A stretch of 41,071 nt of DNA. Source: Kagunavirus LF7074P1. The notes beneath the pieces were generated by a model. That model had not been told where the DNA came from, ran no database searches, and saw only the letters and a list, made by a program, of their open reading frames with translations. Where the stretch lies: sequence record OZ035758.1; one strand, written 5' to 3'. Position numbers and translations under genes: made by a program. Shown here piece after piece: positions 5,910 through 40,336 of the stretch; position 1 is the stretch's first letter, and each line of letters starts with the position of its first letter.

Positions 5910-6878
5910 ATGTCTCTGTCAGATATGAAGGTTTATAACGACGATATCGTCGGTACCACTATCGAACTGCTTGGCCAGAAAACTGACCAGTTTAACGCAG
6001 CCTCCGGTGGCGCAATTGTACTGTCTACCGCTTCATGGCGCGGTGACTTCTCCCGTGAGTCTTTCTTTAACCAGATTGCCTCCGCTAAACGCCGCGTTGA
6101 CCGTTACGCCGATATCGCGTCTCAGGCAGCTACCGCGCTGACTCAGGGCGAGCATGTAGGCGTTAAAGTAGCTGGCGGCTTCGGACCGGTACTGTTCGAG
6201 CCTGCGCAAATGACCTGGCTGAACGAAGACCCGGCGAGCGCGATTCGTGCTATCTCCGAAGGGTTCTCTGACGCACTGTTAGCTGACCAGCTTAACACCG
6301 CTGTTGGTGCCGCCGTTGCCGCGGTATCAGGTCAGACTGCACTGGTTAACGATGTATCCGCGACCGCTGGCTTGACCCTGAACGTGCTGAACAACAGCCA
6401 CGCTAAATTCGGCGACCAGTCTCAGTTGTTGGTCACTGACATCATGACCGGCGCGGCCTACCACACTCTGGTGGACAAAGCGCTGACCAACGCAAACCAG
6501 TTGTTCGTTGCTGGCAACGTTATGGTTGTCGATGTTCTCGGCAAGCGTTACGTAATCTCTGACATTCCTGCGCTGTACGAGGCCGGTACTCCGAACAAGA
6601 CTAAGGTCCTGTCCGTAGTTGCAAACGGCATCATCGTTGATAATGCTTCTGACATTATCAGCAACATTGACACCAGCAACGGTAACACCCGCATCCAGAC
6701 CACCTGGCAGGCGGACTACAGCTTCGGCCTGAAACTGAAAGGCTACAGCTGGGACGTTACCAACGGCGGTAAATCTCCGCTGGACGCAGAACTGTTCACC
6801 GCGACTAACTGGGACAAAGCTGTTGCCGAGAACAAGCACACCCTCGGTACTCTGGCAATCGCCGACGCAGACCTGTAA
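5910..6878 (+). CDS. Major capsid protein
   Basis: 322-aa ORF with strong RBS (cgagga), directly after scaffold-like gene and followed by strong terminator. Confidence 0.7.
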   Translation: MSLSDMKVYNDDIVGTTIELLGQKTDQFNAASGGAIVLSTASWRGDFSRESFFNQIASAKRRVDRYADIASQAATALTQGEHVGVKVAGGFGPVLFEPAQMTWLNEDPASAIRAISEGFSDALLADQLNTAVGAAVAAVSGQTALVNDVSATAGLTLNVLNNSHAKFGDQSQLLVTDIMTGAAYHTLVDKALTNANQLFVAGNVMVVDVLGKRYVISDIPALYEAGTPNKTKVLSVVANGIIVDNASDIISNIDTSNGNTRIQTTWQADYSFGLKLKGYSWDVTNGGKSPLDAELFTATNWDKAVAENKHTLGTLAIADADL

Positions 6879-6895
6879 CACGGTTAGTAGTAAAA

Positions 6896-10573: not shown

Positions 10574-10598
10574 AAGGCCCCGAAAGGGGCCTTTTTCT
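10574..10598. terminator. Bidirectional intrinsic terminator between convergent genes
   Basis: aggcccc-gaaa-ggggcct hairpin flanked by A-run upstream and T-run downstream. Confidence 0.75.
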
Positions 10599-11152
10599 TA
10601 CAAACCTAATTTTAAAGCAATGTCTATAACGTTCGATTTAACGTCACCTGGTAGGATGTAGGTGTCGTAATCTTTTACACCGCTAACATCATACAGATAA
10701 CCGCGGCTGTCCCCCTCAAACGTATAGCCTTCTCGGTGCAGGCGAACGATTCTTACATCATGACCCGCGGCGACGATAGGGGCCACTTCGCTGGCGAACC
10801 CGCCGTCGGACACTACAAAAACTTCGTTGCCGTCGGGCAAGTTTTCAGCAAGATACTTACCGAAATAATCACTACCAAGTACCGGTTTAATGAATTGCTC
10901 AGATATAGCAATCATGAACTGACGCCGCGACAAGCCATTAAGGAAGCCTTCTGGCTTTTCTTTCCGCGCTCGGTCGTCGTAGCCGTCGAGAAACTCGTGG
11001 TAAGCACCCGGGCCTAACGCTGCCAGAGCAATATTGAACATTGGATTCTTGAAACTGGTAGTTCCCTTCGCAAAGCCCATCTCTACCAGCGCCATAGCAA
11101 GTGTGTCTTTCCCGCAACCCGCAGGGCCATTAAGAATAATTACCATAGCCAT
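10598..11152 (-). CDS. P-loop kinase, dNMP-kinase-like (could alternatively be a polynucleotide 5'-kinase)
   Basis: 184 aa; Walker A NGPAGCGKDT near N-terminus; overall arrangement reminiscent of T4 gp1-type kinases; start overlaps upstream stop. Confidence 0.6.
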   Translation of the reverse strand: MAMVIILNGPAGCGKDTLAMALVEMGFAKGTTSFKNPMFNIALAALGPGAYHEFLDGYDDRARKEKPEGFLNGLSRRQFMIAISEQFIKPVLGSDYFGKYLAENLPDGNEVFVVSDGGFASEVAPIVAAGHDVRIVRLHREGYTFEGDSRGYLYDVSGVKDYDTYILPGDVKSNVIDIALKLGL

Positions 11153-11637
11153 TACTTATCACTCCCGTGCGATTTTAAGTGTGTAGAGTTCCCGTTACAG
11201 TCGTATTCAGTAACCGCGTGAGTGGTTATACCGAGGCCACGGAAATGCTTTATTACCGCTGGCGAGTCGTCGAATGCGCACAAGATTCTTTCCAGCCCGA
11301 TAGTACGTAGCACCTCTTCCTTAATTACGATGTCTTTTCTGTTGTCGTGTTTGCTGCGCATGATTAACTGATAAAATTCGACGCGGTGGCGCTGCAACCA
11401 CATTCTGGTTTCTTTTTCCGCGTCATCACTACGGCCTGTTAAGATAATAACGGCATAGCGACGATTAAGGGCGTTACACAGTTCGATGTTATCTTTAATG
11501 GGTGCATCGTCTTTGCACGCCATGTTAAATGGTTTCCACGCCCAGGTTTCGCCGTAGTTATCTTTCGGCAGCAGGTGTAAACGATGAGCACCATCTGCCA
11601 ATGTCCCGTCTAAATCGAAAATCACAATATCTTTCAT
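11152..11637 (-). CDS. HAD-family phosphatase resembling the 3'-phosphatase domain of T4 polynucleotide kinase
   Basis: 161 aa; VIFDLDGTLA, ILTGR, DNRKDIVIKEE, AFDDSP blocks line up with the T4 Pnk C-terminal domain as recalled from memory. Confidence 0.65.
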   Translation of the reverse strand: MKDIVIFDLDGTLADGAHRLHLLPKDNYGETWAWKPFNMACKDDAPIKDNIELCNALNRRYAVIILTGRSDDAEKETRMWLQRHRVEFYQLIMRSKHDNRKDIVIKEEVLRTIGLERILCAFDDSPAVIKHFRGLGITTHAVTEYDCNGNSTHLKSHGSDK

Positions 11638-17589: not shown

Positions 17590-20135
17590 TCCTGCACTAC
17601 ACGCGAAACGCTGATGGAGCTTTCGACCGTACAAAACACGTCGGGATGCCGATGGAGTTTGTCGTTAACCGTATCCCTGACGGCGTGCCGGTGCGCGTCT
17701 ACCTCGGCGAGATTGGTGATGATACCGACGTAACTGACGACTTCGACGCACTCAAAGACGAAGACGCTGTGTACCACATTATTGAGGGTGCGGGTAGCGG
17801 GGCGCTCGGTGCGGTTAGTAAGGTGTTTGGTTTTATCCTTAAGCCAATCGCCAAGTTGTTTGGCCTGAACACGGCCGCCAACGCCAACTACACGGCGACT
17901 AACAACCAGACAACATCGCCTAATAACAGTCTCACAGACCGCTCAAACAAACCACGCCCTTACGAGCGCTCTTATGACATCTGCGGGACTGTGCAGACAA
18001 TCCCTAACGACCTGATGCAGACGTATAAAGCGTTCAACTCCACGGGTGCTTTGCTGGAGTATTCGTATTATGACGCGGGGCGCGGGCATCTGCATATTGA
18101 GGCTGATGGCGTAACGGAAGGCGACACCCTGATAAGCGACATCACAGGCTCCTCTGTAGCCGTGTATGCGCCGTATACTTCCCCGAACAACACCGCATCG
18201 CCCCAACTACAAATCGGCGACGTCATTGACCAGAAACTCTATGTGACATACTCCAACGACGACGTTGACGGTATTGTGCTGAAAGCGCCAAACGACATCG
18301 GAGCTAACCCAAGCGCCGACGGCACGGCTAAACGTATTTCAAACACCGGCTACATTTATGACCCGTCCGGCGACTCTGCTTTTTCTGAGTTTCTTAGCGT
18401 CGGTGATGTCGCGGTGTTGAGCAACTTTGACGTTGCTGATGTCACTAACCTGAACGGCTCGTTTGAGGTTTTATACGTTGACGACTTCGAAGTAAGATTA
18501 GCCGTAAACGGGGCGTCTAACTGGGCCGCGTTGACTAGCGGGCAGACGTACACGCTAACAGAGCGTTCAGATACGTTTATCGGCCCGAGCAACACCTACG
18601 ACGTATCCCTTACAGACTGGTATTACATGGTGCGTGGGGAAGTCGACCGTGTGCTCGCTAACGTAGCCGGGCAGAACGGCCTCTACAAATACGACGGCGG
18701 CTACAACCGCACCAGCGTAACCGTAGAACTCCAGTACCAGATGATTGATTCTCAGCGTAACCCGTTGAGCGATATCTACACGGTACAGGCCACAATTACC
18801 GGTAACAATACCGACTACGTCGGCACGTCTATTTACGGGCAGTTACCGACAGCATCGCGCTTCCGCGCCCGTATGCGCCGTATAACGAATTTCGATAAGG
18901 ATTACGACGGAACGGTAAGTGACGAAATAACATTCATCAACCTGTACGGGCAATCACTTGACACCACCCCCCACTACGGCAATAGGACAACGGTGCATTG
19001 CGCCCGTAAACAGACGCCGCGTGCGGCCAGTATAGACAACCCGGAACTGCGCATGATTGCAACCGAGATGTGTTACAAATATCTAGGTAACGGCGTATTT
19101 GATAGCGTAATGACACCGAACACCCGGGCCGTGCAGTCGCTAATCAGACTGGCTCGAGACCCTGCGGTGGGTAATCTGGAACTGACAACGGCAAATATGG
19201 ATAAGTTACTCGCTGTGCAGGAAGAAATTGAGTCCTATTTTGGCAGCGAATTAGCCGGACAATTCTGCTACACGTTCGACGACTACGACACCACGATGCA
19301 GGACGTCGTTCAGACTATAGCGGAAGCCGTGTTCTGTACTGCGTACCGTAAAGGCGCGGATATTATGCTGCGATTCGACCGTCCGGTTGCGGGGCCTGAA
19401 ATGGTGTTCACCCACCGCAGCAAAACTACCGGTACAGAGAAATGGACCCGCACGTTCAACGATTCGACAACCTACGATAGCCTGTCGTTCTCGTACATCG
19501 ACCCGGATACTAATGTACAGGAAACGATTTATATCCCGGAAGAACTCGGGGCAAATACAGAGGAATACGAATCGAAGGGCGTACGTAACTATCAGCAGGC
19601 GTATTGGCTGGCGTGGCGTCGCTATCAGCGCAATGCGTTAAGTAAAGTTGTCGTAGAGTTTGAAGCTACCGAAGAAGGTGCGCTCGCTACTCCAGGCGGT
19701 GTAATCAGCGTAGTTAAAGGCTCGCGTATTGCGCCACAGGACGGCTATGTTATTGCCGTTAATGGGCTTACGCTGACACTGTCGCAGCCTGTTACGTTCA
19801 CCCCCGGCGATGACCACTCCATCATTCTTAAGAAGCGCGACGGCTCTGTGCAGAGTATCTCTGTTATCAAAGGAAGCCACGACCGCGAAGTGATTATGCT
19901 TTCTGCCCCAGAGGAAGCAATCTACACAGGGAATAGCGCACTAAAAACTGAGTTTTCATTCGGCAACGAAGCAAGGCATAATGCTCAGAAGATAGTTGTT
20001 TCTTCAATCGACCCTGGCGACGACCGCACGGTCAAGATTACTGGCTACAACTATGACGACGGATTCTATAAATACGACGGCGTCGCGCCATACGGCAGCG
20101 GTTTCTCCGACGGATTCAGCAATGGTTTTAATTAA
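17580..20135 (+). CDS. Tail tip / host specificity protein (gpJ-like), N-terminal region gpI-like
   Basis: 851 aa; start codon uncertain (TTG 17580 after GGAG, or ATG 17643/17649); N-terminal GAGSGALGAVSKVFGFILKPIAKLFGL resembles the hydrophobic tail of gpI-type proteins. Confidence 0.55.
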   Translation: MAIILHYTRNADGAFDRTKHVGMPMEFVVNRIPDGVPVRVYLGEIGDDTDVTDDFDALKDEDAVYHIIEGAGSGALGAVSKVFGFILKPIAKLFGLNTAANANYTATNNQTTSPNNSLTDRSNKPRPYERSYDICGTVQTIPNDLMQTYKAFNSTGALLEYSYYDAGRGHLHIEADGVTEGDTLISDITGSSVAVYAPYTSPNNTASPQLQIGDVIDQKLYVTYSNDDVDGIVLKAPNDIGANPSADGTAKRISNTGYIYDPSGDSAFSEFLSVGDVAVLSNFDVADVTNLNGSFEVLYVDDFEVRLAVNGASNWAALTSGQTYTLTERSDTFIGPSNTYDVSLTDWYYMVRGEVDRVLANVAGQNGLYKYDGGYNRTSVTVELQYQMIDSQRNPLSDIYTVQATITGNNTDYVGTSIYGQLPTASRFRARMRRITNFDKDYDGTVSDEITFINLYGQSLDTTPHYGNRTTVHCARKQTPRAASIDNPELRMIATEMCYKYLGNGVFDSVMTPNTRAVQSLIRLARDPAVGNLELTTANMDKLLAVQEEIESYFGSELAGQFCYTFDDYDTTMQDVVQTIAEAVFCTAYRKGADIMLRFDRPVAGPEMVFTHRSKTTGTEKWTRTFNDSTTYDSLSFSYIDPDTNVQETIYIPEELGANTEEYESKGVRNYQQAYWLAWRRYQRNALSKVVVEFEATEEGALATPGGVISVVKGSRIAPQDGYVIAVNGLTLTLSQPVTFTPGDDHSIILKKRDGSVQSISVIKGSHDREVIMLSAPEEAIYTGNSALKTEFSFGNEARHNAQKIVVSSIDPGDDRTVKITGYNYDDGFYKYDGVAPYGSGFSDGFSNGFN

Positions 20136-20147
20136 AGAGGACTCTAT

Positions 20148-23102
20148 ATGTCAAGCGGATGCGGTGACGTTCTAAGCCTGGCGGATTTGCAAACCGCCAA
20201 GAAGCACCAGATTTTCGAAGCCGAAGTTATCACCGGTAAATCCGGTGGTGTTGCTGGTGGCGCTGATATCGATTACGCGACAAATCAGGTTACCGGGCAG
20301 ACACAGAAGACGTTACCTGCCGTGTTGCGTGATGCTGGTTTTAAACTGGCAGATTTTGATTTCACGTCAGGCGGTACACTATCCGCTAACGACCGAAACA
20401 CCGCAGTTTTGTGGCCGTCGTCCTCTGGCGGTGACGGGGATTGGTACTATTGGTTGGGTGCTCTACCAAAAATTATCCCAGCGTCATCTTCTCCGCAGTC
20501 CACCGGTGGCGTGGCAGATGGGGCGTGGCAGCCTGTCGGGTCGGTCATACTGCGGCAGCAAATATCAGATGTAAACGGTGCAATTCTGTACCCAGATTTA
20601 CATGTGGCGCGATGGAAGGACGAATACGACCCGCGCGCATGGGGCGCCGTGGGCGACGGCGTAACTGATGATACTCAATCTATTTTTAATGTATTAGCAG
20701 CTTCCCCCAACAATTGGATTATAGACGGCAGGGGTTTGACTTATAAAGTTTCCCAATTACCTGACATTAGTAAATTTAATAATGCTGCATTCGTTTACGA
20801 GCGCGTAGCCGGGCAACCGCTTACTTATGTAGCTGATGGCTTCTTTAACGGCTCACTAACTAAGGTGACGGATACCCCGTTCTACAACGCATGGACGCAG
20901 GATAAAACTTTCGTCTACGACCATGTTATTTACGCCCCGTTTATGGCGGGCGAACGACATGGTGTTAAAAACTTACATGTAGCTTGGGTTCGCTCTGGAG
21001 ACGACGGGCAGACTTGGTCAATGCCTGAGTGGTTGACTCCAATCCATGCTGACTATAATGCTAGTGTTTCTACGGACAGAGTTAACTACCACTGCATGAG
21101 CATGGGTACGTGCGGCAACCGATTATATGCAGTTATAGAAACTCGCTACTTATCTAATATGCGGATGAAGAAGGCAGAACTTTGGTCACGCCCAATGCCG
21201 TATTTTAGACACCCAACCGGCGGAATAACTATTAGTTCTGGCTCCACTACTGCTACCATTGTCATAGAAAATCATGGCCTAAAAGCAGGAGATGCGGTTA
21301 ACTTCTCTAATACATCGGCAACTGGCGTATCGGGTAATATGACGGTTTCGTCTATAATTAACCGAAATACGTTCACTGTTACGCTCTCAAGCCCGGCGAG
21401 TTCCACCATAAACAATGCGGGTGTTACCTGGAACTTCGCAACGCGATTCTGGGACAGCCCGTGGGAAATTACCGAATTGCCTGAGGTAGCATACTCCACT
21501 AATGCTGATTTGTGTGTCACGGAGACACATAGTTTTGCGGTTATAGATGATGTTAACTACACTATCGCTGTCGGCTATCACAACGGCGATGTGTCCCCTA
21601 GGCGTCTCGGTGTCTTGTATTTTAGTAACGTGTATGACAATCCTGGCGTATTCGTTCGTCGCACTGTCGCTCAGGCATACGCTGATAACGCTTCTGAGCC
21701 GTGCGTGAAAAGTTATGGTGGTGTGTTATACCTTACCACACGCGGCACATTACCTACTTCCCCTGGCTCTACACTGGCGATGAGCGCCGATTCTGGGCAA
21801 AACTGGAGCTACTTGCGATTTCCGAACAATGTACATCACTCCAATCTTCCGTTCGCTAAAGTAGGTGACTATCTCTACATCTTTGGTACAGAACGTGCCT
21901 TTGGTGAGTGGGAAGGTGGCGAGCAGGACAGCCGCTATGAAGGTTCGTATCCGAGGACCTTTATGTGCAAAGTTAATGTGTCGTCCTGGCCTTCATCTTT
22001 AGATGATGTTCAGTGGTTTAATATTACCGACCAAATATACCAGGGTCATATCGTTAACTCTGCTGTCGGCGTCGGCTCGGTCTGTGTTAAAGATGGCTGG
22101 TTGTACTATATCTTTGGTGGGGAAGACTTCTTCTCTCCCTGGAGCATAGGGGATAACAGTGCGAAGTTATGGTACAAACATGATGGGCATCCGGCTGACT
22201 TATATAGCTACCGGATAAAGATTGAAGACCACCCGTACGTATCACGTGATTTCAAATACGGAGCAACTCCTAACCGTACAATACCTGTCGCCATGGGGGT
22301 AGATGGTGTACGCCATGTAGAAGCACCTTTAACGTTTGACAATGATGTAAGCGTGTACTCCCTGCATGTAACGGGGCTGGAATACGATGGTACACAACAG
22401 TCTGCCGTGCGCGCACGGTTTGATGGTGATTACGGGCTGATTTCAAAAACAGTCCCCACTAAAACCCCATCGGGTCAAAGACTGATAGTTAGCGGTGGTG
22501 ATGGTGCATCCAGTTCCGATGGTGCGTTGCTGCAACTGTACGGGGCAAACCATGCAACGCCTAACAGGGCTATTATGTATGCGTCAGGAGGCTTCTACTC
22601 ATACAACAATTTTCTTCCTTACTTAGACTCGCAAGTGTCTTTAGGTTCGGCAGGTAATAGGTGGACTACGGTGTACGCGGCCACCGGTACGATAAACACG
22701 TCTGATGGTACACTTAAGACGGACAAAGAGGAAATTGAGGGACAACTCCTTACCGCATGGGAGGATATACATGTAATATCTTTTAAGTGGCTTGAAAGCC
22801 TAGCAATCAAGGGTGACACTGCAAGGATACACTTCGGTGTGATAGCCCAAGATGTGCGAGACATCTTGGTCAACCATGGGCTTATGGAGAAAGATTCTAC
22901 CGATTGTAAATATGCTTTCTTGTGCTACGACTCAATTGAAGCTGCGTATGATATTGATGAAGATGGCCAGACTGTACAAGTATCCCCTCCCGGCGGCAGA
23001 TGGGGGGTTAGGGCGGACCAGATGTTCTTCATAGAGATTGCCTATCAGCGTAAGAAGATGCGCGAGTTCGAGAAGAGGCTGGCAGCACTAGAAGATAAAT
23101 AA
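20148..23102 (+). CDS. Tailspike / receptor-binding protein with sialidase-type Asp-boxes and C-terminal intramolecular chaperone (peptidase S74-like) domain
   Basis: 984 aa; Asp-box SGDDGQTW (nt 20994-21017) and SADSGQNW (nt 21783-21806); pectate-lyase-like WGAVGDGVTDDTQS; C-terminal SDGTLK...HFGVIAQDV typical of endosialidase-type chaperone domains. Confidence 0.75.
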   Translation: MSSGCGDVLSLADLQTAKKHQIFEAEVITGKSGGVAGGADIDYATNQVTGQTQKTLPAVLRDAGFKLADFDFTSGGTLSANDRNTAVLWPSSSGGDGDWYYWLGALPKIIPASSSPQSTGGVADGAWQPVGSVILRQQISDVNGAILYPDLHVARWKDEYDPRAWGAVGDGVTDDTQSIFNVLAASPNNWIIDGRGLTYKVSQLPDISKFNNAAFVYERVAGQPLTYVADGFFNGSLTKVTDTPFYNAWTQDKTFVYDHVIYAPFMAGERHGVKNLHVAWVRSGDDGQTWSMPEWLTPIHADYNASVSTDRVNYHCMSMGTCGNRLYAVIETRYLSNMRMKKAELWSRPMPYFRHPTGGITISSGSTTATIVIENHGLKAGDAVNFSNTSATGVSGNMTVSSIINRNTFTVTLSSPASSTINNAGVTWNFATRFWDSPWEITELPEVAYSTNADLCVTETHSFAVIDDVNYTIAVGYHNGDVSPRRLGVLYFSNVYDNPGVFVRRTVAQAYADNASEPCVKSYGGVLYLTTRGTLPTSPGSTLAMSADSGQNWSYLRFPNNVHHSNLPFAKVGDYLYIFGTERAFGEWEGGEQDSRYEGSYPRTFMCKVNVSSWPSSLDDVQWFNITDQIYQGHIVNSAVGVGSVCVKDGWLYYIFGGEDFFSPWSIGDNSAKLWYKHDGHPADLYSYRIKIEDHPYVSRDFKYGATPNRTIPVAMGVDGVRHVEAPLTFDNDVSVYSLHVTGLEYDGTQQSAVRARFDGDYGLISKTVPTKTPSGQRLIVSGGDGASSSDGALLQLYGANHATPNRAIMYASGGFYSYNNFLPYLDSQVSLGSAGNRWTTVYAATGTINTSDGTLKTDKEEIEGQLLTAWEDIHVISFKWLESLAIKGDTARIHFGVIAQDVRDILVNHGLMEKDSTDCKYAFLCYDSIEAAYDIDEDGQTVQVSPPGGRWGVRADQMFFIEIAYQRKKMREFEKRLAALEDK

Positions 23103-23105
23103 AAC

Positions 23106-23130
23106 TAAGGCCCCAAACGGGGCCTTTTCT
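23106..23130. terminator. Bidirectional intrinsic terminator between convergent tailspike and replication operons
   Basis: aggcccc-aaac-ggggcct hairpin with flanking A/T runs. Confidence 0.7.
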
Positions 23131-23268
23131 CTACTCTTCTGATAGCTTCTCCAGTACAAACGCCAGTTGTGCATTAGCGGCATCCCTCTGTTGTCGTAGT
23201 CGTAGAACCTCCTCTTCAAGTTCCTTGATACGTTTTTGCAATGCCGGAATCGAGGCTATGATGTTCAT
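23131..23268 (-). CDS. Small hypothetical coiled-coil protein (45 aa), not in ORF track
   Basis: ATG overlaps Toprim gene stop (ATGA); heptad-like KRIKELEEEVLRLRQQ; stop abuts terminator. Confidence 0.3.
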   Translation of the reverse strand: MNIIASIPALQKRIKELEEEVLRLRQQRDAANAQLAFVLEKLSEE

Positions 23269-23780
23269 TTAACAAATTTCCTCGCAAGGTAGGTTATCTC
23301 TTCTTCACAAAGCTCATCAAGGTCGTTTGACACAAATCCTCTGGAGAATGTTCTGCTAAATTTTAAACCAGCTTTATCATTATCTCCGGCGCACACCCAA
23401 TCATACGGCAAAAGTGACATTTGCTGCCGTAGGTCTGCAGGTATACCCGACCCCAGTGCGCTTACTGCATGGAATCCGCAATTCATCAAGGCGACAGCTT
23501 TGAATATGCTTTCTGTAACAAATACTACACCGTCGCTTGGTAAATATTCCAACCCCCATAAGCAAGGTCTTGTTGTTCGGGTAAAATACCGCGCATCCTT
23601 TGGGTTCTTGCAGTTCTTTTCAGCATGTGGCTTGTAATGCTGGTACCCGCGTAGCCTACCGTCAAAACCCCACAAGTAGAATGTGGCAACGCCATGGGCT
23701 AAGACTACACGGAGACGGTCGGCGTCAAACCCACGCGCCAGCAGATGCGCCTTAAGTAGTAACTCCTCGCAATCCATCAT
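23265..23780 (-). CDS. Stand-alone Toprim-domain protein (primase-associated)
   Basis: 171 aa; VFVTESIFKAVAL (conserved Glu) and CAGDNDKAG (DxD), the Toprim signature; coupled to helicase gene. Confidence 0.5.
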   Translation of the reverse strand: MMDCEELLLKAHLLARGFDADRLRVVLAHGVATFYLWGFDGRLRGYQHYKPHAEKNCKNPKDARYFTRTTRPCLWGLEYLPSDGVVFVTESIFKAVALMNCGFHAVSALGSGIPADLRQQMSLLPYDWVCAGDNDKAGLKFSRTFSRGFVSNDLDELCEEEITYLARKFVK

Positions 23781-33955: not shown

Positions 33956-34080
33956 TTCTTTTTCTCCGCGCGTTCTAAGGCTTCCTGCATACGACGCATT
34001 GCGCGGTTCATCTTTACCGGTGCGAAGAAATCAGCGCCGTGTTTCTGGCGGCGCAACTGTGGAACTATTAACTTCGTCAT
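33952..34080 (-). CDS. Small basic hypothetical protein (42 aa), not in ORF track
   Basis: RBS AGGA 8 nt upstream of ATG; stop overlaps primase ATG (ATGA). Confidence 0.3.
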   Translation of the reverse strand: MTKLIVPQLRRQKHGADFFAPVKMNRAMRRMQEALERAEKKK

Positions 34081-34149
34081 TGTATAATCCTTGTGCTTAC
34101 TTTGATGATTTGTGCTTCGGCCCCGACGTTCTAGCGTTGGGGTTTCTTT

Positions 34150-34440
34150 TTACCGTTTAGCCAACTCTTCCAGCAAATTTTTATACTCTTCAAAATATTC
34201 CTCGACCAAATCATCGCCGAAATAGAAGTCGATATACTCGAGATTATCTCTTACGTTAAGCGACGCAGACATGGTGCTTAGTTGGCGTAAGCTAATTAGC
34301 TTCATTTCTGTTTCTACACAGAAAGGCCGGTAGGTATCGAGGTGGCAAGAGATGTTGAAGCATAAAGCGAACTCTCCCGCCACGGAGTGAACCATATACA
34401 CTTCGTTTTCTGCTTTATTGTGGAAAATTACACCTTTCAT
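34150..34440 (-). CDS. Hypothetical protein
   Basis: 96-aa acidic ORF coupled to upstream HTH gene (ATGA). Confidence 0.45.
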   Translation of the reverse strand: MKGVIFHNKAENEVYMVHSVAGEFALCFNISCHLDTYRPFCVETEMKLISLRQLSTMSASLNVRDNLEYIDFYFGDDLVEEYFEEYKNLLEELAKR

Positions 34441-34619
34441 TTCACATTCTCCTTAATCCATTCTTCAACTTTATTACGGTCAAATGTACCTGGTAAACGG
34501 CGACCCATAACCTTAATACAACAATCAGGGAATTTACCACTGCGCAACCAGTTATTAATTGTCTGACGTGTTACCCCAATACGCTCGGCTACTTCATTCT
34601 GGGTCATGTAATGTTGCAT
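34437..34619 (-). CDS. Small HTH DNA-binding protein (AlpA/excisionase-like fold suggested)
   Basis: 60 aa from ATG 34619 (RBS AGGAG 8 nt upstream); MTQNEVAERIGVTRQTINNWLRSGKFP. Confidence 0.5.
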   Translation of the reverse strand: MQHYMTQNEVAERIGVTRQTINNWLRSGKFPDCCIKVMGRRLPGTFDRNKVEEWIKENVK

Positions 34620-34650
34620 TTTTATATCTCCTGTTTGTTTGGTGAAGCTG

Positions 34651-34679
34651 AGTATAGGATAGCGGGAATGTAAAAGCAA
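34651..34679 (-). promoter_or_regulatory. Candidate sigma70 promoter (TTGCTT-17-TATACT) for the HTH/primase operon
   Basis: Read on the minus strand upstream of the 34619 start. Confidence 0.4.
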
Positions 34680-34716
34680 CCAATCCCTGCAATATTTAAT
34701 CTTTACAAAAAAGTTA

Positions 34717-34746
34717 TTGAAAGTTCTTGACACATGTTTGTATAAT
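34717..34746 (+). promoter_or_regulatory. Candidate rightward sigma70 promoter (TTGAAA-18-TATAAT)
   Basis: Consensus -10 TATAAT at 34741-34746; reads into a non-coding region containing a long hairpin. Confidence 0.4.
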
Positions 34747-34773
34747 GGTTTTGGGACTTGTATATATTACGGA

Positions 34774-34805
34774 GTTGACGAACCCTCCCTGAGGGATTCG
34801 TCAAC
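34774..34805 (+). other. Long perfect inverted repeat / stem-loop (GTTGACGAACCCTC-CCT-GAGGGATTCGTCAAC)
   Basis: ~14-bp perfect stem read directly from sequence; about 30 nt downstream of the candidate promoter at 34717. Confidence 0.7.
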
Positions 34806-34946
34806 CCCTCCCAGACAGCTGAGATGCTTGTTTTAGGGTTTAAGGATAAGTGTATCTAAATCTCATTTAAAGAAGTAACCCACTGAAATATCTACTGTTT
34901 CTTAATGTGCCGTAGATTCGCAACCGTAAAAATGTAACGATTATTG

Positions 34947-34972
34947 GGCAGGCTTAAGGCCTGCCCTTTAGT
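34947..34972 (+). terminator. Weak terminator-like hairpin
   Basis: gggcaggc-ttaag-gcctgccc stem followed by ttt. Confidence 0.35.
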
Positions 34973-35038
34973 TACCAAGTAATAAGAATAAAGGCACAAC
35001 CTTCCCCGAAGAATCACAACGGCAACGTAACTAATCTC

Positions 35039-35067
35039 TTGCACACCCCAACATAATAGGATACTAT
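35039..35067 (+). promoter_or_regulatory. Sigma70-like promoter P1 (TTGCAC-17-TACTAT), rightward early promoter
   Basis: TTGCACaccccaacataataggaTACTAT; conserved leader ...aaacgagacagaggag... to ATG 35102. Confidence 0.65.
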
Positions 35068-35101
35068 TCACTTATCGAAACGAGACAGAGGAGTGAGGGT
35101 T

Positions 35102-35284
35102 ATGTTTAAGAATGGTCAGTTGGTGAAAACAAAGCGCAGCCGGCAACACGTAATAGTTACCAAAGACGAGGATGAATATGGTGTTGTCGCCGTATTTAGC
35201 CTTATACGGAGGAAACATGGTTATGTTCGTCACGATAATTTAGAACTCATCGGCAACAATTTTAAATTCAAAGGGGCGAAGTGA
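35102..35284 (+). CDS. Hypothetical early protein (60 aa)
   Basis: ATG 8 nt after GAGGAG. Confidence 0.45.
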   Translation: MFKNGQLVKTKRSRQHVIVTKDEDEYGVVAVFSLIRRKHGYVRHDNLELIGNNFKFKGAK

Positions 35285-35469
35285 TGGGAGAATTAATTTA
35301 CGACGTATACGTCGACGGGGTCATAACAGAGACGACAAGTAATAAAGATTACGCAATAAAGCGGTATGTGTATTATGCCGCAGTGGTAGGAAGGATGGTA
35401 GAAGTGCGGGAGCAAACGGCATCGAATCATGATGCTCGTGCCGACGACTCTGAGGGAGGTTGCCGTTAA
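35284..35469 (+). CDS. Hypothetical protein
   Basis: ATG overlapping upstream TGA; RBS aagggg. Confidence 0.4.
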   Translation: MGELIYDVYVDGVITETTSNKDYAIKRYVYYAAVVGRMVEVREQTASNHDARADDSEGGCR

Positions 35470-35624
35470 TGCGAATCCGTATAACTGACCGCAGGCTTAT
35501 AGATTTCGGTATCTCGGTAGGTGATGTTTTTCTGGCGTTCAGCAGCAACCATTATGGTTTTATGATTGAGTACAAAGGGTCGTTATTGTTCGTGTATCGG
35601 GATGAATGTGAGGTTCTGGTATGA
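35469..35624 (+). CDS. Small hypothetical protein (51 aa), not in ORF track
   Basis: TAATG coupling to the upstream gene. Confidence 0.3.
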   Translation: MRIRITDRRLIDFGISVGDVFLAFSSNHYGFMIEYKGSLLFVYRDECEVLV

Positions 35625-35764
35625 GAGAAGCATTTGAACGGTGGGCTGTGGTCGAGGGTCTGCCGGTTAACAAGGGTTCAAAGAAAGAGTACCTGAACGT
35701 TAAGACCCGTCTCGCGTGGCGGGCGTTGAAAGCTGGTGTGTTGTCTGTTGCGAATCCGAGGTGA
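35621..35764 (+). CDS. Small hypothetical protein (47 aa), not in ORF track
   Basis: ATGA coupling; basic. Confidence 0.3.
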   Translation: MREAFERWAVVEGLPVNKGSKKEYLNVKTRLAWRALKAGVLSVANPR

Positions 35765-35767
35765 GAT

Positions 35768-35968
35768 ATGAGCGAGTGGATTAAGTGTAGTGAGATGCTG
35801 CCAGGTAATGGGTATACGGATAAAGAGTTCCTGGTGTATGAAACGTTAAATAACGCAGTTCAGCACGATTATTACATAGTTCCTGATGACGGGAGAAAGC
35901 CTTTCTGGAATCACTACGATAAGTACGTGACGCACTGGATGCCGTTACCCGAGCCGCCAGAAGTGTGA
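35768..35968 (+). CDS. Hypothetical protein, DUF551-like C-terminus
   Basis: 66 aa ending THWMPLPEPPEV, a motif recalled from a widespread enterophage protein family. Confidence 0.45.
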   Translation: MSEWIKCSEMLPGNGYTDKEFLVYETLNNAVQHDYYIVPDDGRKPFWNHYDKYVTHWMPLPEPPEV

Positions 35969-36101
35969 TGTTCAATAGTTTGGGATCTTACTGAGTGACT
36001 TACGCTGCTACACAGCAGCGTACAACTTTAACTTAGTGTCGTCAAAGGCGACACTTTCATCAAACGCAACAATCGAAGCGACTATTGCAGGAGATGCAAC
36101 A

Positions 36102-37325: not shown

Positions 37326-37602
37326 CATCCTTAAACGCAGCGGCCTTGCGCCGCTGTCGCCGAGAGCGAATACACGAATACACAAGCGCCGCCGTAATGC
37401 ACTGTACCCCGAGATTCAGGCCAGGCGCAAAGCGGTCCGCGCCTGTGGATTCCAGAACGGGAAGGCCGTGAATCTCGGTGAGTTTAAAACGCAGGAACGT
37501 GCAGCTATCGCTAATCGGCTATTTAATTACTGGAAATCGCTGGGGTACGTGGATATTCCGACGAAACCACAGAGACGACAATACATCTGGCGGCATAAAT
37601 AA
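37309..37602 (+). CDS. Hypothetical basic protein
   Basis: 97 aa from ATG 37309; Arg/Lys-rich. Confidence 0.4.
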   Translation: MSLATDILKRSGLAPLSPRANTRIHKRRRNALYPEIQARRKAVRACGFQNGKAVNLGEFKTQERAAIANRLFNYWKSLGYVDIPTKPQRRQYIWRHK

Positions 37603-39759: not shown

Positions 39760-39928
39760 ACCCGTAGTTATCGATGGCGTCCTGTGGAAACCATACTCGG
39801 TTAACCACATCGACGCCGACGGGAAGAAGTTCAGCTTCTACATTTTTGCAATTAGCCGTGAGCACGCCGCTTGTGTGGTTGATGATATACGAGAAACAGC
39901 GTGGCTTGGTGATGAGATAGTGGGGTGA
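39737..39928 (+). CDS. Hypothetical protein
   Basis: ORF in track; start TTG 39737 or ATG 39740/39743. Confidence 0.4.
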   Translation: MLMMKAPEPVVIDGVLWKPYSVNHIDADGKKFSFYIFAISREHAACVVDDIRETAWLGDEIVG

Positions 39929-39932
39929 GAGT

Positions 39933-40103
39933 ATGTTCAGTGACATCAACGCAGCAATCGAAGAAGCAATCTGGCGCAGATACAACGGCGAGCAACAACG
40001 GCACTTCTGCCTGGTGCAACGTGGAAACATGATTGCCGTAGTGCAGGACCGCGATAACAAATATCCGAATGCGATGTGGACAACGAGGAATTTTGTAGGA
40101 TGA
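39933..40103 (+). CDS. Small hypothetical protein (56 aa), not in ORF track
   Basis: ATG 39933; stop overlaps next ATG (ATGA). Confidence 0.3.
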   Translation: MFSDINAAIEEAIWRRYNGEQQRHFCLVQRGNMIAVVQDRDNKYPNAMWTTRNFVG

Positions 40104-40336
40104 TTACCAGCATTCCGAACCTGATTAAAGAATACGGCACGATGGCGGAGACATGCCGACAAACCGGCATCAACGAAATGACGATTGCCAAGTACCGCAA
40201 CGACGTGAACTGCGAGCGCCACGTAATTTATAACAACCGTCTTATGACGCACGTTAAGACAAGCCCGGTGTTATTCACGCGCCGTGGTATCACTAAAACT
40301 GAGCAACGTATTGCTAAAGAGGAGAGCGGAGAATGA
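40100..40336 (+). CDS. Small HTH-like protein; candidate regulator
   Basis: 78 aa from ATG 40100; ETCRQTGINEMTIAKYRN helix-turn-helix-like; last substantial gene before the terS promoter region. Confidence 0.4.
   Translation: MITSIPNLIKEYGTMAETCRQTGINEMTIAKYRNDVNCERHVIYNNRLMTHVKTSPVLFTRRGITKTEQRIAKEESGE

What the first reader, a model, noticed from the sequence alone, without database searches (positions are those of the whole stretch)
20148..23102. Tailspike with sialidase-type Asp-boxes and a C-terminal self-cleaving chaperone domain: candidate capsule depolymerase (endosialidase-like)
Two canonical Asp-box motifs (SGDDGQTW, SADSGQNW) in the central region, a pectate-lyase-like GDGVTDDT motif, and a C-terminal SDGTLK...HFGVIAQDV module match the organisation of polysialic-acid-degrading tailspikes that release their C-terminal intramolecular chaperone by autoproteolysis. 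This suggests the host carries a polysialic acid (K1-type) or related capsule.
Basis: partly seen in the sequence, partly recalled or inferred. Interest (0 to 1): 0.45.

Follow-up and report, generated by a model that had tools for sequence, protein, structure and literature searches.

The report
Known K1-capsule endosialidase tailspike gene

Summary
It is a known endosialidase, not merely endosialidase-like. All four endosialidase-specific Pfam domains hit in order (E 2e-223 for the beta-propeller), followed by Peptidase_S74. It matches the crystal structures of phi92 endosialidase (4HIZ, E = 0) and K1F endoNF (1V0E/3GVL, E ~1e-230), and the endoNF C-terminal chaperone (3GW6, E 4e-59).

The protein is 100% identical to that of Kagunavirus LF7074P1. 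It is 99.2% identical to K1G, 97.7% to the cloned, enzymatically active phage 63D endosialidase, and 97.0% to K1H. The purified K1H enzyme degrades K1 capsule and runs at 93 kDa after self-cleavage.

The endoNF catalytic residues H350, R549, E581, R596 and R647 map to identical residues here. The cleavage pair S911/K916 maps to S852/K857.

The whole window is a Kagunavirus genome, 99.5-99.8% identical to LF7074P1.

One correction: GDGVTDDT belongs to the endosialidase N-terminal cap domain, not to a pectate-lyase module.

Verdict: observation confirmed, interpretation supported, already known, low interest.

The parts
20135..20141 (+). Shine-Dalgarno sequence AAGAGGA, 6 nt upstream of the ATG. 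The upstream tail-tip gene stops at 20133-20135.
   Evidence: Read directly from the sequence. The 63D record annotates an RBS at the equivalent place.
20148..20342 (+). aa 1-65: Kagunavirus-specific N-terminal anchor, inferred to attach the spike to the tail tip. It is shared with non-sialidase tailspikes of sister phages.
   Evidence: The first 195 nt are 90-97% identical in Kagunaviruses that have other tailspikes (H24-H30). The LF7074P3 675-aa tailspike has aa 1-65 identical and then diverges. Attachment function is inferred, not shown.
20343..20645 (+). aa 66-166: neck or linker region containing a Tail_spike_N-like domain. It already belongs to the transferable endosialidase cassette, being homologous to K1F endoNF aa ~143-244.
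   Evidence: Pfam PF18668 covers aa 97-131, E 1e-13. BLASTP against K1F aa 85-244 gives 38% identity, E 2e-28. PDB hits are 9vvr, 4oj5 and 8x8m.
20646..20846 (+). aa 167-233: endosialidase N-terminal cap domain. It contains GDGVTDDT (20652-20675).
   Evidence: Pfam PF12218, E 2e-37. It aligns with the start of the 4HIZ and 1V0E crystal chains.
20847..22226 (+). aa 234-693: catalytic beta-propeller. Asp-boxes lie at 20994-21017 and 21783-21806. Catalytic residues are H271 (20958-20960), R485 (21600-21602), E517 (21696-21698), R532 (21741-21743) and R583 (21894-21896).
   Evidence: Pfam PF12217, E 2.1e-223, full-length profile match 1-367. The catalytic role of those residues is stated in PMC12632334.
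21198..21446 (+). aa 351-433: beta-barrel domain inserted in the propeller. In endoNF this is one of the three polysialic-acid binding sites.
   Evidence: Pfam PF12195, E 5.6e-41, nested within PF12217. The three binding sites are described in PMC12632334.
22227..22700 (+). aa 694-851: stalk ('tail spike') domain, the C-terminal part of the mature enzyme. It ends at T851.
   Evidence: Pfam PF12219, E 7.1e-75. The 4HIZ chain ends at the residue aligned to T851.
22701..23099 (+). aa 852-984: C-terminal intramolecular chaperone / autoprotease domain (15.2 kDa), predicted to be released by cleavage of the T851-S852 bond. S852 (22701-22703) and K857 (22716-22718) form the catalytic pair. The ARIHFGVIAQ motif lies at aa 892-901.
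   Evidence: Pfam PF13884, E 1.3e-12. 3GW6 matches at E 4.6e-59 and aligns to the last residue. The Ser-Lys dyad is stated in PMC3742443. K1H enzyme runs at 93 kDa after proteolysis, against a calculated 92.8 kDa for aa 1-851.
23100..23102 (+). TAA stop codon.
23107..23126 (.). GC-rich palindromic hairpin AAGGCCCC-AAAC-GGGGCCTT, 4 nt after the stop codon. It is a likely bidirectional terminator between the rightward late (tail) genes and the leftward replication genes.
   Evidence: The pattern scan flags it on the minus strand, where AGTTTTATTT follows it. On the plus strand TTTCTCT follows it. This is a consensus match only; function is not shown.

Best explanation
The gene encodes the receptor-destroying tailspike of a K1-dependent Kagunavirus (K1G/K1H/63D type siphophage). 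It is a homotrimeric endo-N-acetylneuraminidase (endosialidase).

Proposed working:
- The 108-kDa precursor trimerises with the help of its C-terminal chaperone domain (aa 852-984).
- Once the stalk has folded, the S852/K857 dyad cuts the T851-S852 bond. This releases the 15-kDa chaperone and leaves a 92.8-kDa mature subunit.
- The N-terminal 65 residues dock the spike to the phage tail tip.
- The beta-propeller (active-site residues H271, R485, E517, R532, R583) hydrolyses internal alpha-2,8 linkages of the polysialic-acid K1 capsule.
- The beta-barrel and stalk provide extra polysialic-acid binding sites, so the virion can tunnel through the capsule to the outer membrane.

Shown here: ORF integrity, domain order, near-identity to characterised enzymes, and conservation of the catalytic and cleavage residues. 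Inferred from orthologues: enzymatic activity, trimer state, autocleavage, and the tail-docking role of aa 1-65.
For: - Domain architecture: all four endosialidase-specific Pfam domains plus Peptidase_S74, in the canonical order and far above the curated cut-offs.
- Solved structures: 4HIZ phi92 endosialidase (E = 0, aa 166-851), endoNF 1V0E/3GVL (E ~1e-230), and the 3GW6 chaperone construct (E 4.6e-59, aligned to the C-terminus).
- Protein identity: 100% to LF7074P1, 99.2% to K1G, 97.7% to 63D, 97.0% to K1H, 51% to K1F, and 78.7% to phi92 endoN92 over the catalytic part.
- Functional residues: endoNF H350, R549, E581, R596, R647, K585, Q330, D331, H527, S528 and N699 all map to identical residues. 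S911 and K916 map to S852 and K857. Their roles are stated in PMC12632334 and PMC3742443.
- Experiments on orthologues: recombinant K1H depolymerase runs at 93 kDa 'after proteolysis' and degrades K1 capsule in vitro (PMC5696595). The calculated mature mass here is 92.8 kDa. The 63D gene is listed among those encoding cloned, enzymatically active endosialidases (PMC3594737; PMC5380687). The JSSK01 homologue has the same four Pfam domains and was expressed (PMC11641727).
- Genomic context: the gene is the last one of the tail module, after the tape-measure and tail-tip genes, as in K1G. The whole window is 99.5-99.8% identical to Kagunavirus LF7074P1. The closest annotated relatives were isolated on E. 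coli O18:K1:H7.
Against: I found nothing substantive against it.

No experiment exists on this exact isolate. The host of LF7074P1 is not stated in its record, and a literature search for that name found nothing relevant.

The 63D enzyme was reported as a homotetramer (PMC5380687). That conflicts with the three-chain crystal entry of the phi92 homologue (4HIZ, 3 chains). The oligomeric state of this subtype therefore rests on homology.
Confidence: 0.97

Rival explanations
1. The enzyme is a bifunctional endosialidase that cleaves both alpha-2,8 and alpha-2,9 linkages, as phi92 endoN92 does. The phage would then also attack K92-type capsules, not only K1.
For: The closest solved structure is phi92 endoN92 (4HIZ, E = 0; 78.7% identity over the catalytic part). 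EndoN92 is reported to hydrolyse both kinds of polysialic acid (PMC13450770, citing Schwarzer 2015). The window enzyme is much nearer to endoN92 than to the K1F or K1E enzymes (~50%).
Against: All close relatives at 95% identity or more were isolated on K1 strains and are described as K1-dependent. About 21% sequence divergence from endoN92 is ample to change linkage tolerance. I found no data on alpha-2,9 cleavage by 63D, K1G or K1H enzymes. This refines the main explanation rather than contradicting it.
Confidence: 0.2
2. The protein is a catalytically dead, lectin-like tailspike that binds polysialic acid without cleaving it.
For: Inactive endosialidase variants that still bind polysialic acid exist as laboratory tools (PMC5380687).
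Against: All listed catalytic and second-shell residues are identical to endoNF. There are only 8 amino-acid differences from K1G and 23-30 from the active 63D and K1H enzymes, and none is at a mapped catalytic position.
Confidence: 0.02
3. The protein is a non-sialidase depolymerase: either a pectate-lyase-fold beta-helix, as GDGVTDDT suggested, or a generic exo-sialidase BNR propeller.
For: There are sub-threshold Pfam hits to PF12708 (E 0.16), BNR_2 (E 0.029) and BNR (E 0.68). Sister phage LF7074P3 and the K1-independent Kagunaviruses do carry non-sialidase spikes on the same anchor.
Against: All those hits are far below the curated cut-offs and lie underneath endosialidase-specific domains scoring 127-741 bits. 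The GDGVTDDT motif is part of the endoNF N-terminal cap.
Confidence: 0.01

Closest known systems
Tailspike endosialidase of Kagunavirus K1G (ADA82273.1, 'tailspike 63D sialidase'), K1H (ADA82322.1) and Kagunavirus LF7074P1 (OZ035752.1)
   Same: Same length (984 aa), same position in the genome and same domain order. Protein identity is 100% (LF7074P1), 99.2% (K1G) and 97.0% (K1H). The K1H enzyme was purified, is self-processed to 93 kDa and degrades K1 capsule.
   Different: There are 8 substitutions against K1G: N211K, K274Q, E446G, A547T, G776A, A845T, D859N and D919S. Against LF7074P1 there are only 16 synonymous transitions, clustered in nt 25-150 of the gene.
Phage 63D endo-N-acetylneuraminidase (BAA32990.1, AB015437; Machida et al. 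2000)
   Same: 97.7% protein identity over all 984 aa. It is listed among the cloned, enzymatically active endosialidases of siphophages.
   Different: 23 substitutions. The 63D enzyme was reported as a tetramer, which homology to trimeric crystal structures makes doubtful for this subtype.
Phage phi92 endosialidase endoN92 / gp143 (PDB 4HIZ)
   Same: It has the same catalytic cap-propeller-barrel-stalk fold. The structure aligns over aa 166-851 (E = 0) with 78.7% identity. The crystallised chain ends exactly at the residue equivalent to T851, immediately before the predicted cleavage site.
   Different: It sits on a myophage with a different N-terminal attachment region. It is reported to be bifunctional for alpha-2,8 and alpha-2,9, which is untested for this enzyme. 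The window protein has a 4-residue insertion (SVST, aa ~305-308) relative to 4HIZ.
Phage K1F endosialidase endoNF (gp17; PDB 1V0E, 3GVJ/K/L, 3GW6)
   Same: It is the mechanistic reference. It has the same domains, identical catalytic residues, the same Ser-Lys autocleavage dyad and the identical ARIHFGVIAQ motif in the chaperone.
   Different: Only 51% identity overall. K1F has an extra N-terminal segment: the homologous region begins at K1F aa ~85, and a review describes the K1F N-terminus as T7 tail-fibre-like (PMC5380687). The window protein has a Kagunavirus anchor instead. The window propeller carries several short insertions, and the window chaperone lacks about 21 residues present in endoNF.

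Membership tests
Bacteriophage endosialidase (endo-N-acetylneuraminidase; CAZy GH58 by my own knowledge) | Endosialidase-type beta-propeller catalytic domain with two Asp-boxes | tested here: met
   PF12217 matches its full length, E 2.1e-223. Two Asp-boxes lie at aa 283 and 546, homologous to endoNF 362 and 610. PDB 4HIZ gives E = 0 and 1V0E gives E 3e-230.
Bacteriophage endosialidase (endo-N-acetylneuraminidase; CAZy GH58 by my own knowledge) | Active-site residues equivalent to endoNF E581, R596, R647 (plus H350, R549) | tested here: met
   E517, R532, R583, H271 and R485 are identical in the alignment. Their roles are stated in PMC12632334.
Bacteriophage endosialidase (endo-N-acetylneuraminidase; CAZy GH58 by my own knowledge) | Beta-barrel domain inserted in the propeller, and a C-terminal stalk domain (the additional polysialic-acid binding sites) | tested here: met
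   PF12195 covers aa 351-433, nested in PF12217. PF12219 covers aa 694-851, E 7e-75. Conservation of individual binding-site residues was not checked.
Bacteriophage endosialidase (endo-N-acetylneuraminidase; CAZy GH58 by my own knowledge) | [quoted passage not shown] | not testable with these tools
   Activity is shown for orthologues: K1H enzyme (97.0% identical) on purified K1 capsule, and 63D enzyme (97.7% identical) listed as an enzymatically active cloned endosialidase. It has not been measured for this protein.
Peptidase S74 / C-terminal intramolecular chaperone autoprocessing domain (CIMCD, ICA) | Domain homology at the extreme C-terminus, directly following a trimeric stalk | tested here: met
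   PF13884 covers aa 852-912, E 1.3e-12. 3GW6 gives E 4.6e-59 and aligns to residue 984. Other CIMCD structures also hit: 3gud, 4uw8, 7y5s.
Peptidase S74 / C-terminal intramolecular chaperone autoprocessing domain (CIMCD, ICA) | Conserved Ser-(x4)-Lys catalytic dyad at the cleavage site | tested here: met
   S852 and K857 align with endoNF S911 and K916. In 3GW6 the aligned residue is Ala, within the sequence 'tANGERKTE', which I take to be the non-cleavable S911A construct. The dyad is described in PMC3742443.
Peptidase S74 / C-terminal intramolecular chaperone autoprocessing domain (CIMCD, ICA) | Actual autoproteolytic release of the domain | not testable with these tools
   The K1H orthologue runs at 93 kDa 'after proteolysis'. 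Calculated masses here are 92.8 kDa mature and 108.1 kDa precursor.
Kagunavirus (Guernseyvirinae) tailspike | Conserved N-terminal anchor and position as the last gene of the tail module in a Kagunavirus genome | tested here: met
   aa 1-65 are identical to the LF7074P3 tailspike. The first 195 nt are 90-97% identical in other Kagunaviruses. The window is 99.5-99.8% identical to LF7074P1. Gene order is as in K1G.
Pectate-lyase-fold (PF12708) beta-helix depolymerase | Significant match to the right-handed beta-helix domain | tested here: not met
   PF12708 scores 12.2 bits against a cut-off of 27 (E 0.16), over 20 residues only, and lies under PF12218.
Exo-sialidase / BNR neuraminidase (PF13088, PF02012) | Match above the gathering threshold to the BNR sialidase propeller | tested here: not met
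   BNR_2 scores 14.2 bits against a cut-off of 31.4. BNR scores 10.6 against 27. Only the Asp-box motif is shared.

The most novel reading that the evidence does not exclude
The most novel reading still open is that this 63D/K1G-type enzyme shares endoN92's dual alpha-2,8/alpha-2,9 specificity, being 79% identical to the bifunctional phi92 endoN92. Linked to this, the codon-65 boundary plus the patch of 16 synonymous changes just upstream of it (nt 25-150) may mark an actively used recombination junction, through which co-circulating Kagunaviruses swap capsule-specific and O-antigen-specific spikes. Both would be incremental additions to known biology.
Probability: 0.2. Interest if true: 0.2.

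Novelty: already known. Interest (0 to 1): 0.07.

Why it matters
It adds nothing to basic understanding. Endosialidase tailspikes and their self-cleaving chaperone domains are textbook examples, with crystal structures, mutational scans and animal therapy studies.

The practical value is annotation. The window can be labelled as a K1-capsule-dependent Kagunavirus, whose host range is set by this gene. The nearest database record (OZ035752.1) carries no annotation, so the domain and residue map given here could be transferred to it. Enzymes of this subtype are of applied interest as anti-K1 therapeutics and as polysialic-acid detection reagents.

Tried and rejected
- Pectate-lyase reading of GDGVTDDT: rejected. 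The PF12708 hit is sub-threshold, and the motif lies in the endosialidase cap domain shared with endoNF.
- Generic BNR exo-sialidase: rejected. The hits are sub-threshold and only the Asp-boxes are shared.
- Chance occurrence of the Asp-boxes: rejected by shuffling (P = 5e-5).
- Literature search for the isolate name 'LF7074', to learn the host strain: only an unrelated botany paper was found.
- Search of the K1F mutational-scan preprint for S911/K916 and for the stalk-site residues R837/S848/Q853, which I recalled from memory: those residues are not mentioned there. I make no claim about stalk binding-site residues. The Ser-Lys dyad rests on PMC3742443 and on the alignment.
- Not run on purpose: the large protein-database searches, structure prediction and fold search. 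Sequence matches to solved endosialidase structures at E = 0 and 97-100% identity to characterised proteins already answer the question, so the shared compute was not justified.
- First Python attempt failed on a file-naming assumption and was repeated.
Full report
**1. Observation**

Window 20148-23102 on the + strand is a single uninterrupted ORF: ATG start, 984 codons, TAA stop. An AAGAGGA ribosome-binding site lies 6 nt upstream. The preceding 851-aa tail-tip gene stops 12 nt before the ATG.

- GDGVTDDT at aa 169-176
- SGDDGQTW at aa 283-290
- SADSGQNW at aa 546-553
- SDGTLK at aa 852-857
- HFGVIAQDV at aa 895-903

Two strict Asp-box matches (S-x-D-x-G-x-x-W) are not a chance event. Shuffles of this protein give 0.017 matches on average, and P(>=2) = 5e-5. 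These are also the only two matches in all six frames of the 41-kb window. The other ORFs overlapping the gene are at most 109 aa. I did not search those individually.

**2. What it is**

A Pfam scan gives the complete, ordered endosialidase architecture, far above the curated thresholds:

| Pfam domain | aa | E-value |
|---|---|---|
| Tail_spike_N | 97-131 | 1e-13 |
| End_N_terminal | 167-233 | 2e-37 |
| End_beta_propel | 234-693 | 2.1e-223 |
| End_beta_barrel (nested in the propeller) | 351-433 | 5.6e-41 |
| End_tail_spike | 694-851 | 7.1e-75 |
| Peptidase_S74 | 852-912 | 1.3e-12 |

Against the sequences of solved structures, the matches are as follows:
- The best is the phi92 endosialidase 4HIZ (E = 0, aa 166-851).
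- Next come the K1F endoNF structures 1V0E, 3GVJ, 3GVK and 3GVL (E ~1e-230).
- The endoNF stalk-plus-chaperone construct 3GW6 matches at E 4.6e-59 and aligns to the very last residue.

At the nucleotide level the gene is 99.5% identical to Kagunavirus LF7074P1. It is 98.7% identical to K1G, 96.8% to K1H and 96.5% to the phage 63D endo-N-acetylneuraminidase gene AB015437. Twenty records cover at least 80% of it. Protein identities are 100% (LF7074P1), 99.2% (K1G), 97.7% (63D), 97.0% (K1H) and 51% (K1F). Identity to phi92 endoN92 is 78.7% over the catalytic part.

**3. Context**

The whole window is a Kagunavirus (Guernseyvirinae) genome. It is 99.5% identical to LF7074P1 over 1-20500 and 99.8% over the rest.

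Gene order around the spike matches K1G. The rightward tape-measure, small tail and large tail-tip genes come first, then the tailspike. After that come the leftward helicase and DNA polymerase genes.

A GC-rich palindromic hairpin (23107-23126) sits 4 nt after the stop codon, between the two convergent gene blocks. The closest annotated relatives were isolated on E. coli O18:K1:H7.

**4. Mechanism**

The endoNF residues described as catalytic or substrate-binding are H350, R549, E581, R596 and R647. The second-shell residues are Q330, D331, H527, S528, K585 and N699 (PMC12632334). All map to identical residues in the window protein: H271, R485, E517, R532 and R583, and Q251, D252, H461, S462, K521 and N637.

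At the C-terminus, endoNF T910, S911 and K916 map to T851, S852 and K857. In phage endosialidases this Ser-Lys pair is the catalytic dyad for autocleavage, and it becomes competent only after trimer folding (PMC3742443). Three further observations support the cleavage site:
- The 3GW6 chain has Ala at the aligned Ser position.
- The mature phi92 crystal chain ends exactly at the residue aligned to T851.
- The ARIHFGVIAQ segment is identical in endoNF and the window protein.

Calculated masses are 108.1 kDa for the precursor, 92.8 kDa for aa 1-851 and 15.2 kDa for the released domain. Recombinant K1H depolymerase, 97.0% identical, migrates at 93 kDa 'after proteolysis' and degrades purified K1 capsule in vitro (PMC5696595). 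The 63D enzyme is listed among the cloned, enzymatically active endosialidases (PMC3594737; PMC5380687).

The best explanation is therefore a self-processing tailspike that hydrolyses alpha-2,8 polysialic acid and lets the phage penetrate the K1 capsule. Activity, trimer state and cleavage are inferred from orthologues. The ORF, its domains and its residues are shown directly.

**5. Modularity**

The first 65 residues are a Kagunavirus-specific anchor. Sister phage LF7074P3 is 97.6% identical over the structural half of the genome. It encodes a 675-aa, non-sialidase tailspike with the same first 65 residues, which then diverges completely. Other Kagunaviruses share only the first ~195 nt of the gene.

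From about aa 85 of K1F endoNF onwards, the K1F protein is homologous to window aa 6-165 (38% identity, E 2e-28). The transferable endosialidase cassette therefore starts well before the crystallised catalytic part.

The G+C content of the gene body (0.47-0.50) is slightly lower than that of the neighbouring tail genes (0.51-0.54).

**6.

The GDGVTDDT motif is not a pectate-lyase signature here. It lies in the endosialidase N-terminal cap domain and occurs verbatim in endoNF. The PF12708 match is 12 bits against a cut-off of 27.

The generic BNR sialidase families are also sub-threshold. Only the Asp-box motif is shared with exo-sialidases.

The inference of a K1 host is supported by the hosts of near-identical phages. 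The host of this isolate itself is not recorded.

**7. Rivals**

- Dual alpha-2,8/alpha-2,9 specificity, as in endoN92 (PMC13450770), is not excluded and is a refinement of the main explanation (about 0.2).
- A catalytically dead lectin-like spike is very unlikely, because all catalytic residues are intact (0.02).
- A non-sialidase depolymerase is refuted at the sequence level (0.01).

**8. Novelty and verdict**

This is already known. The enzyme subtype was cloned in 2000 (63D), sequenced in K1G and K1H, expressed and tested in mice (K1H), and has a close crystal structure (phi92, 79% identical). The exact protein sequence is in a public record (OZ035752.1), although that record is unannotated.

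Interest is low (0.07).

I did not run the large protein-database searches, structure prediction or fold searches, because the sequence-level evidence is already decisive.

Noticed in passing
window 20172-20297 (nt 25-150 of the tailspike gene): The only differences from LF7074P1 inside the gene are 16 transitions, all synonymous and all within codons 9-50. The remaining 2,760 nt are identical. In nt 1-195 the window is closer to sister phage LF7074P3 (5 differences). This looks like a small recombination patch in the conserved anchor, just upstream of the module-swap junction.
   Followed up: partly
window 6869-6889, 10583-11320, 35467-35621, 37368-37381, 39910-40330: Genome-wide, the 294 differing alignment columns against LF7074P1 are confined to a few patches. 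One of them is a ~155-nt segment at 35467-35621 that does not align at all. This pattern is mosaic exchange between co-circulating Kagunaviruses rather than point-mutation drift. The window is therefore a sibling isolate, not the deposited record itself.
   Followed up: partly
L003 4001-6028 (Kagunavirus LF7074P3, OZ035791.1): A 675-aa alternative tailspike whose residues 1-65 are identical to the window protein and which is unrelated afterwards. It has only a weak Tail_spike_N hit and no endosialidase domains. Two phages whose names share the LF7074 prefix thus carry different receptor-binding modules on the same anchor.
   Followed up: partly
window 23265-23780 (-): A 171-aa ORF directly downstream of the tailspike, on the opposite strand. 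It has a weak Toprim-like match (PF13155, E 7.7e-4, below the cut-off). K1G has only a 61-aa hypothetical ORF at that position, so this is a variable spot between the tailspike and helicase genes.
   Followed up: partly
window 23107-23126: A perfect 8-bp GC-rich hairpin (AAGGCCCC/GGGGCCTT, loop AAAC) 4 nt after the tailspike stop, with T-rich tracts on both sides. It is a probable bidirectional terminator between convergent late and replication genes.
   Followed up: partly
Hits H80 and H81 (Mannheimia phages vB_MhM_1127AP1 and vB_MhM_587AP1): 'Tail fiber' genes of Mannheimia haemolytica serotype A2 phages match aa 59-568 of the query fragment (the catalytic part, protein aa 167-851) at 37% identity (E 5e-90). 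A 2012 review says endosialidases were known only from E. coli phages. By my own recollection, the A2 capsule is polysialic acid, so these may be genuine non-coliphage endosialidases.
   Followed up: no
Literature on phage 63D against PDB 4HIZ: The 63D enzyme, 97.7% identical to this one, is cited as a homotetramer. The 79%-identical phi92 enzyme is deposited with three chains, and the chaperone mechanism is described as trimer-dependent. The tetramer report looks inconsistent with this.
   Followed up: no
window 34001-36000: G+C drops to 0.41 at 34001-35000, the lowest in the window. GC skew then jumps to +0.24 at 35001-36000. This is next to the segment that is replaced relative to LF7074P1. 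It may be a strand-switch, origin or regulatory region.
   Followed up: no
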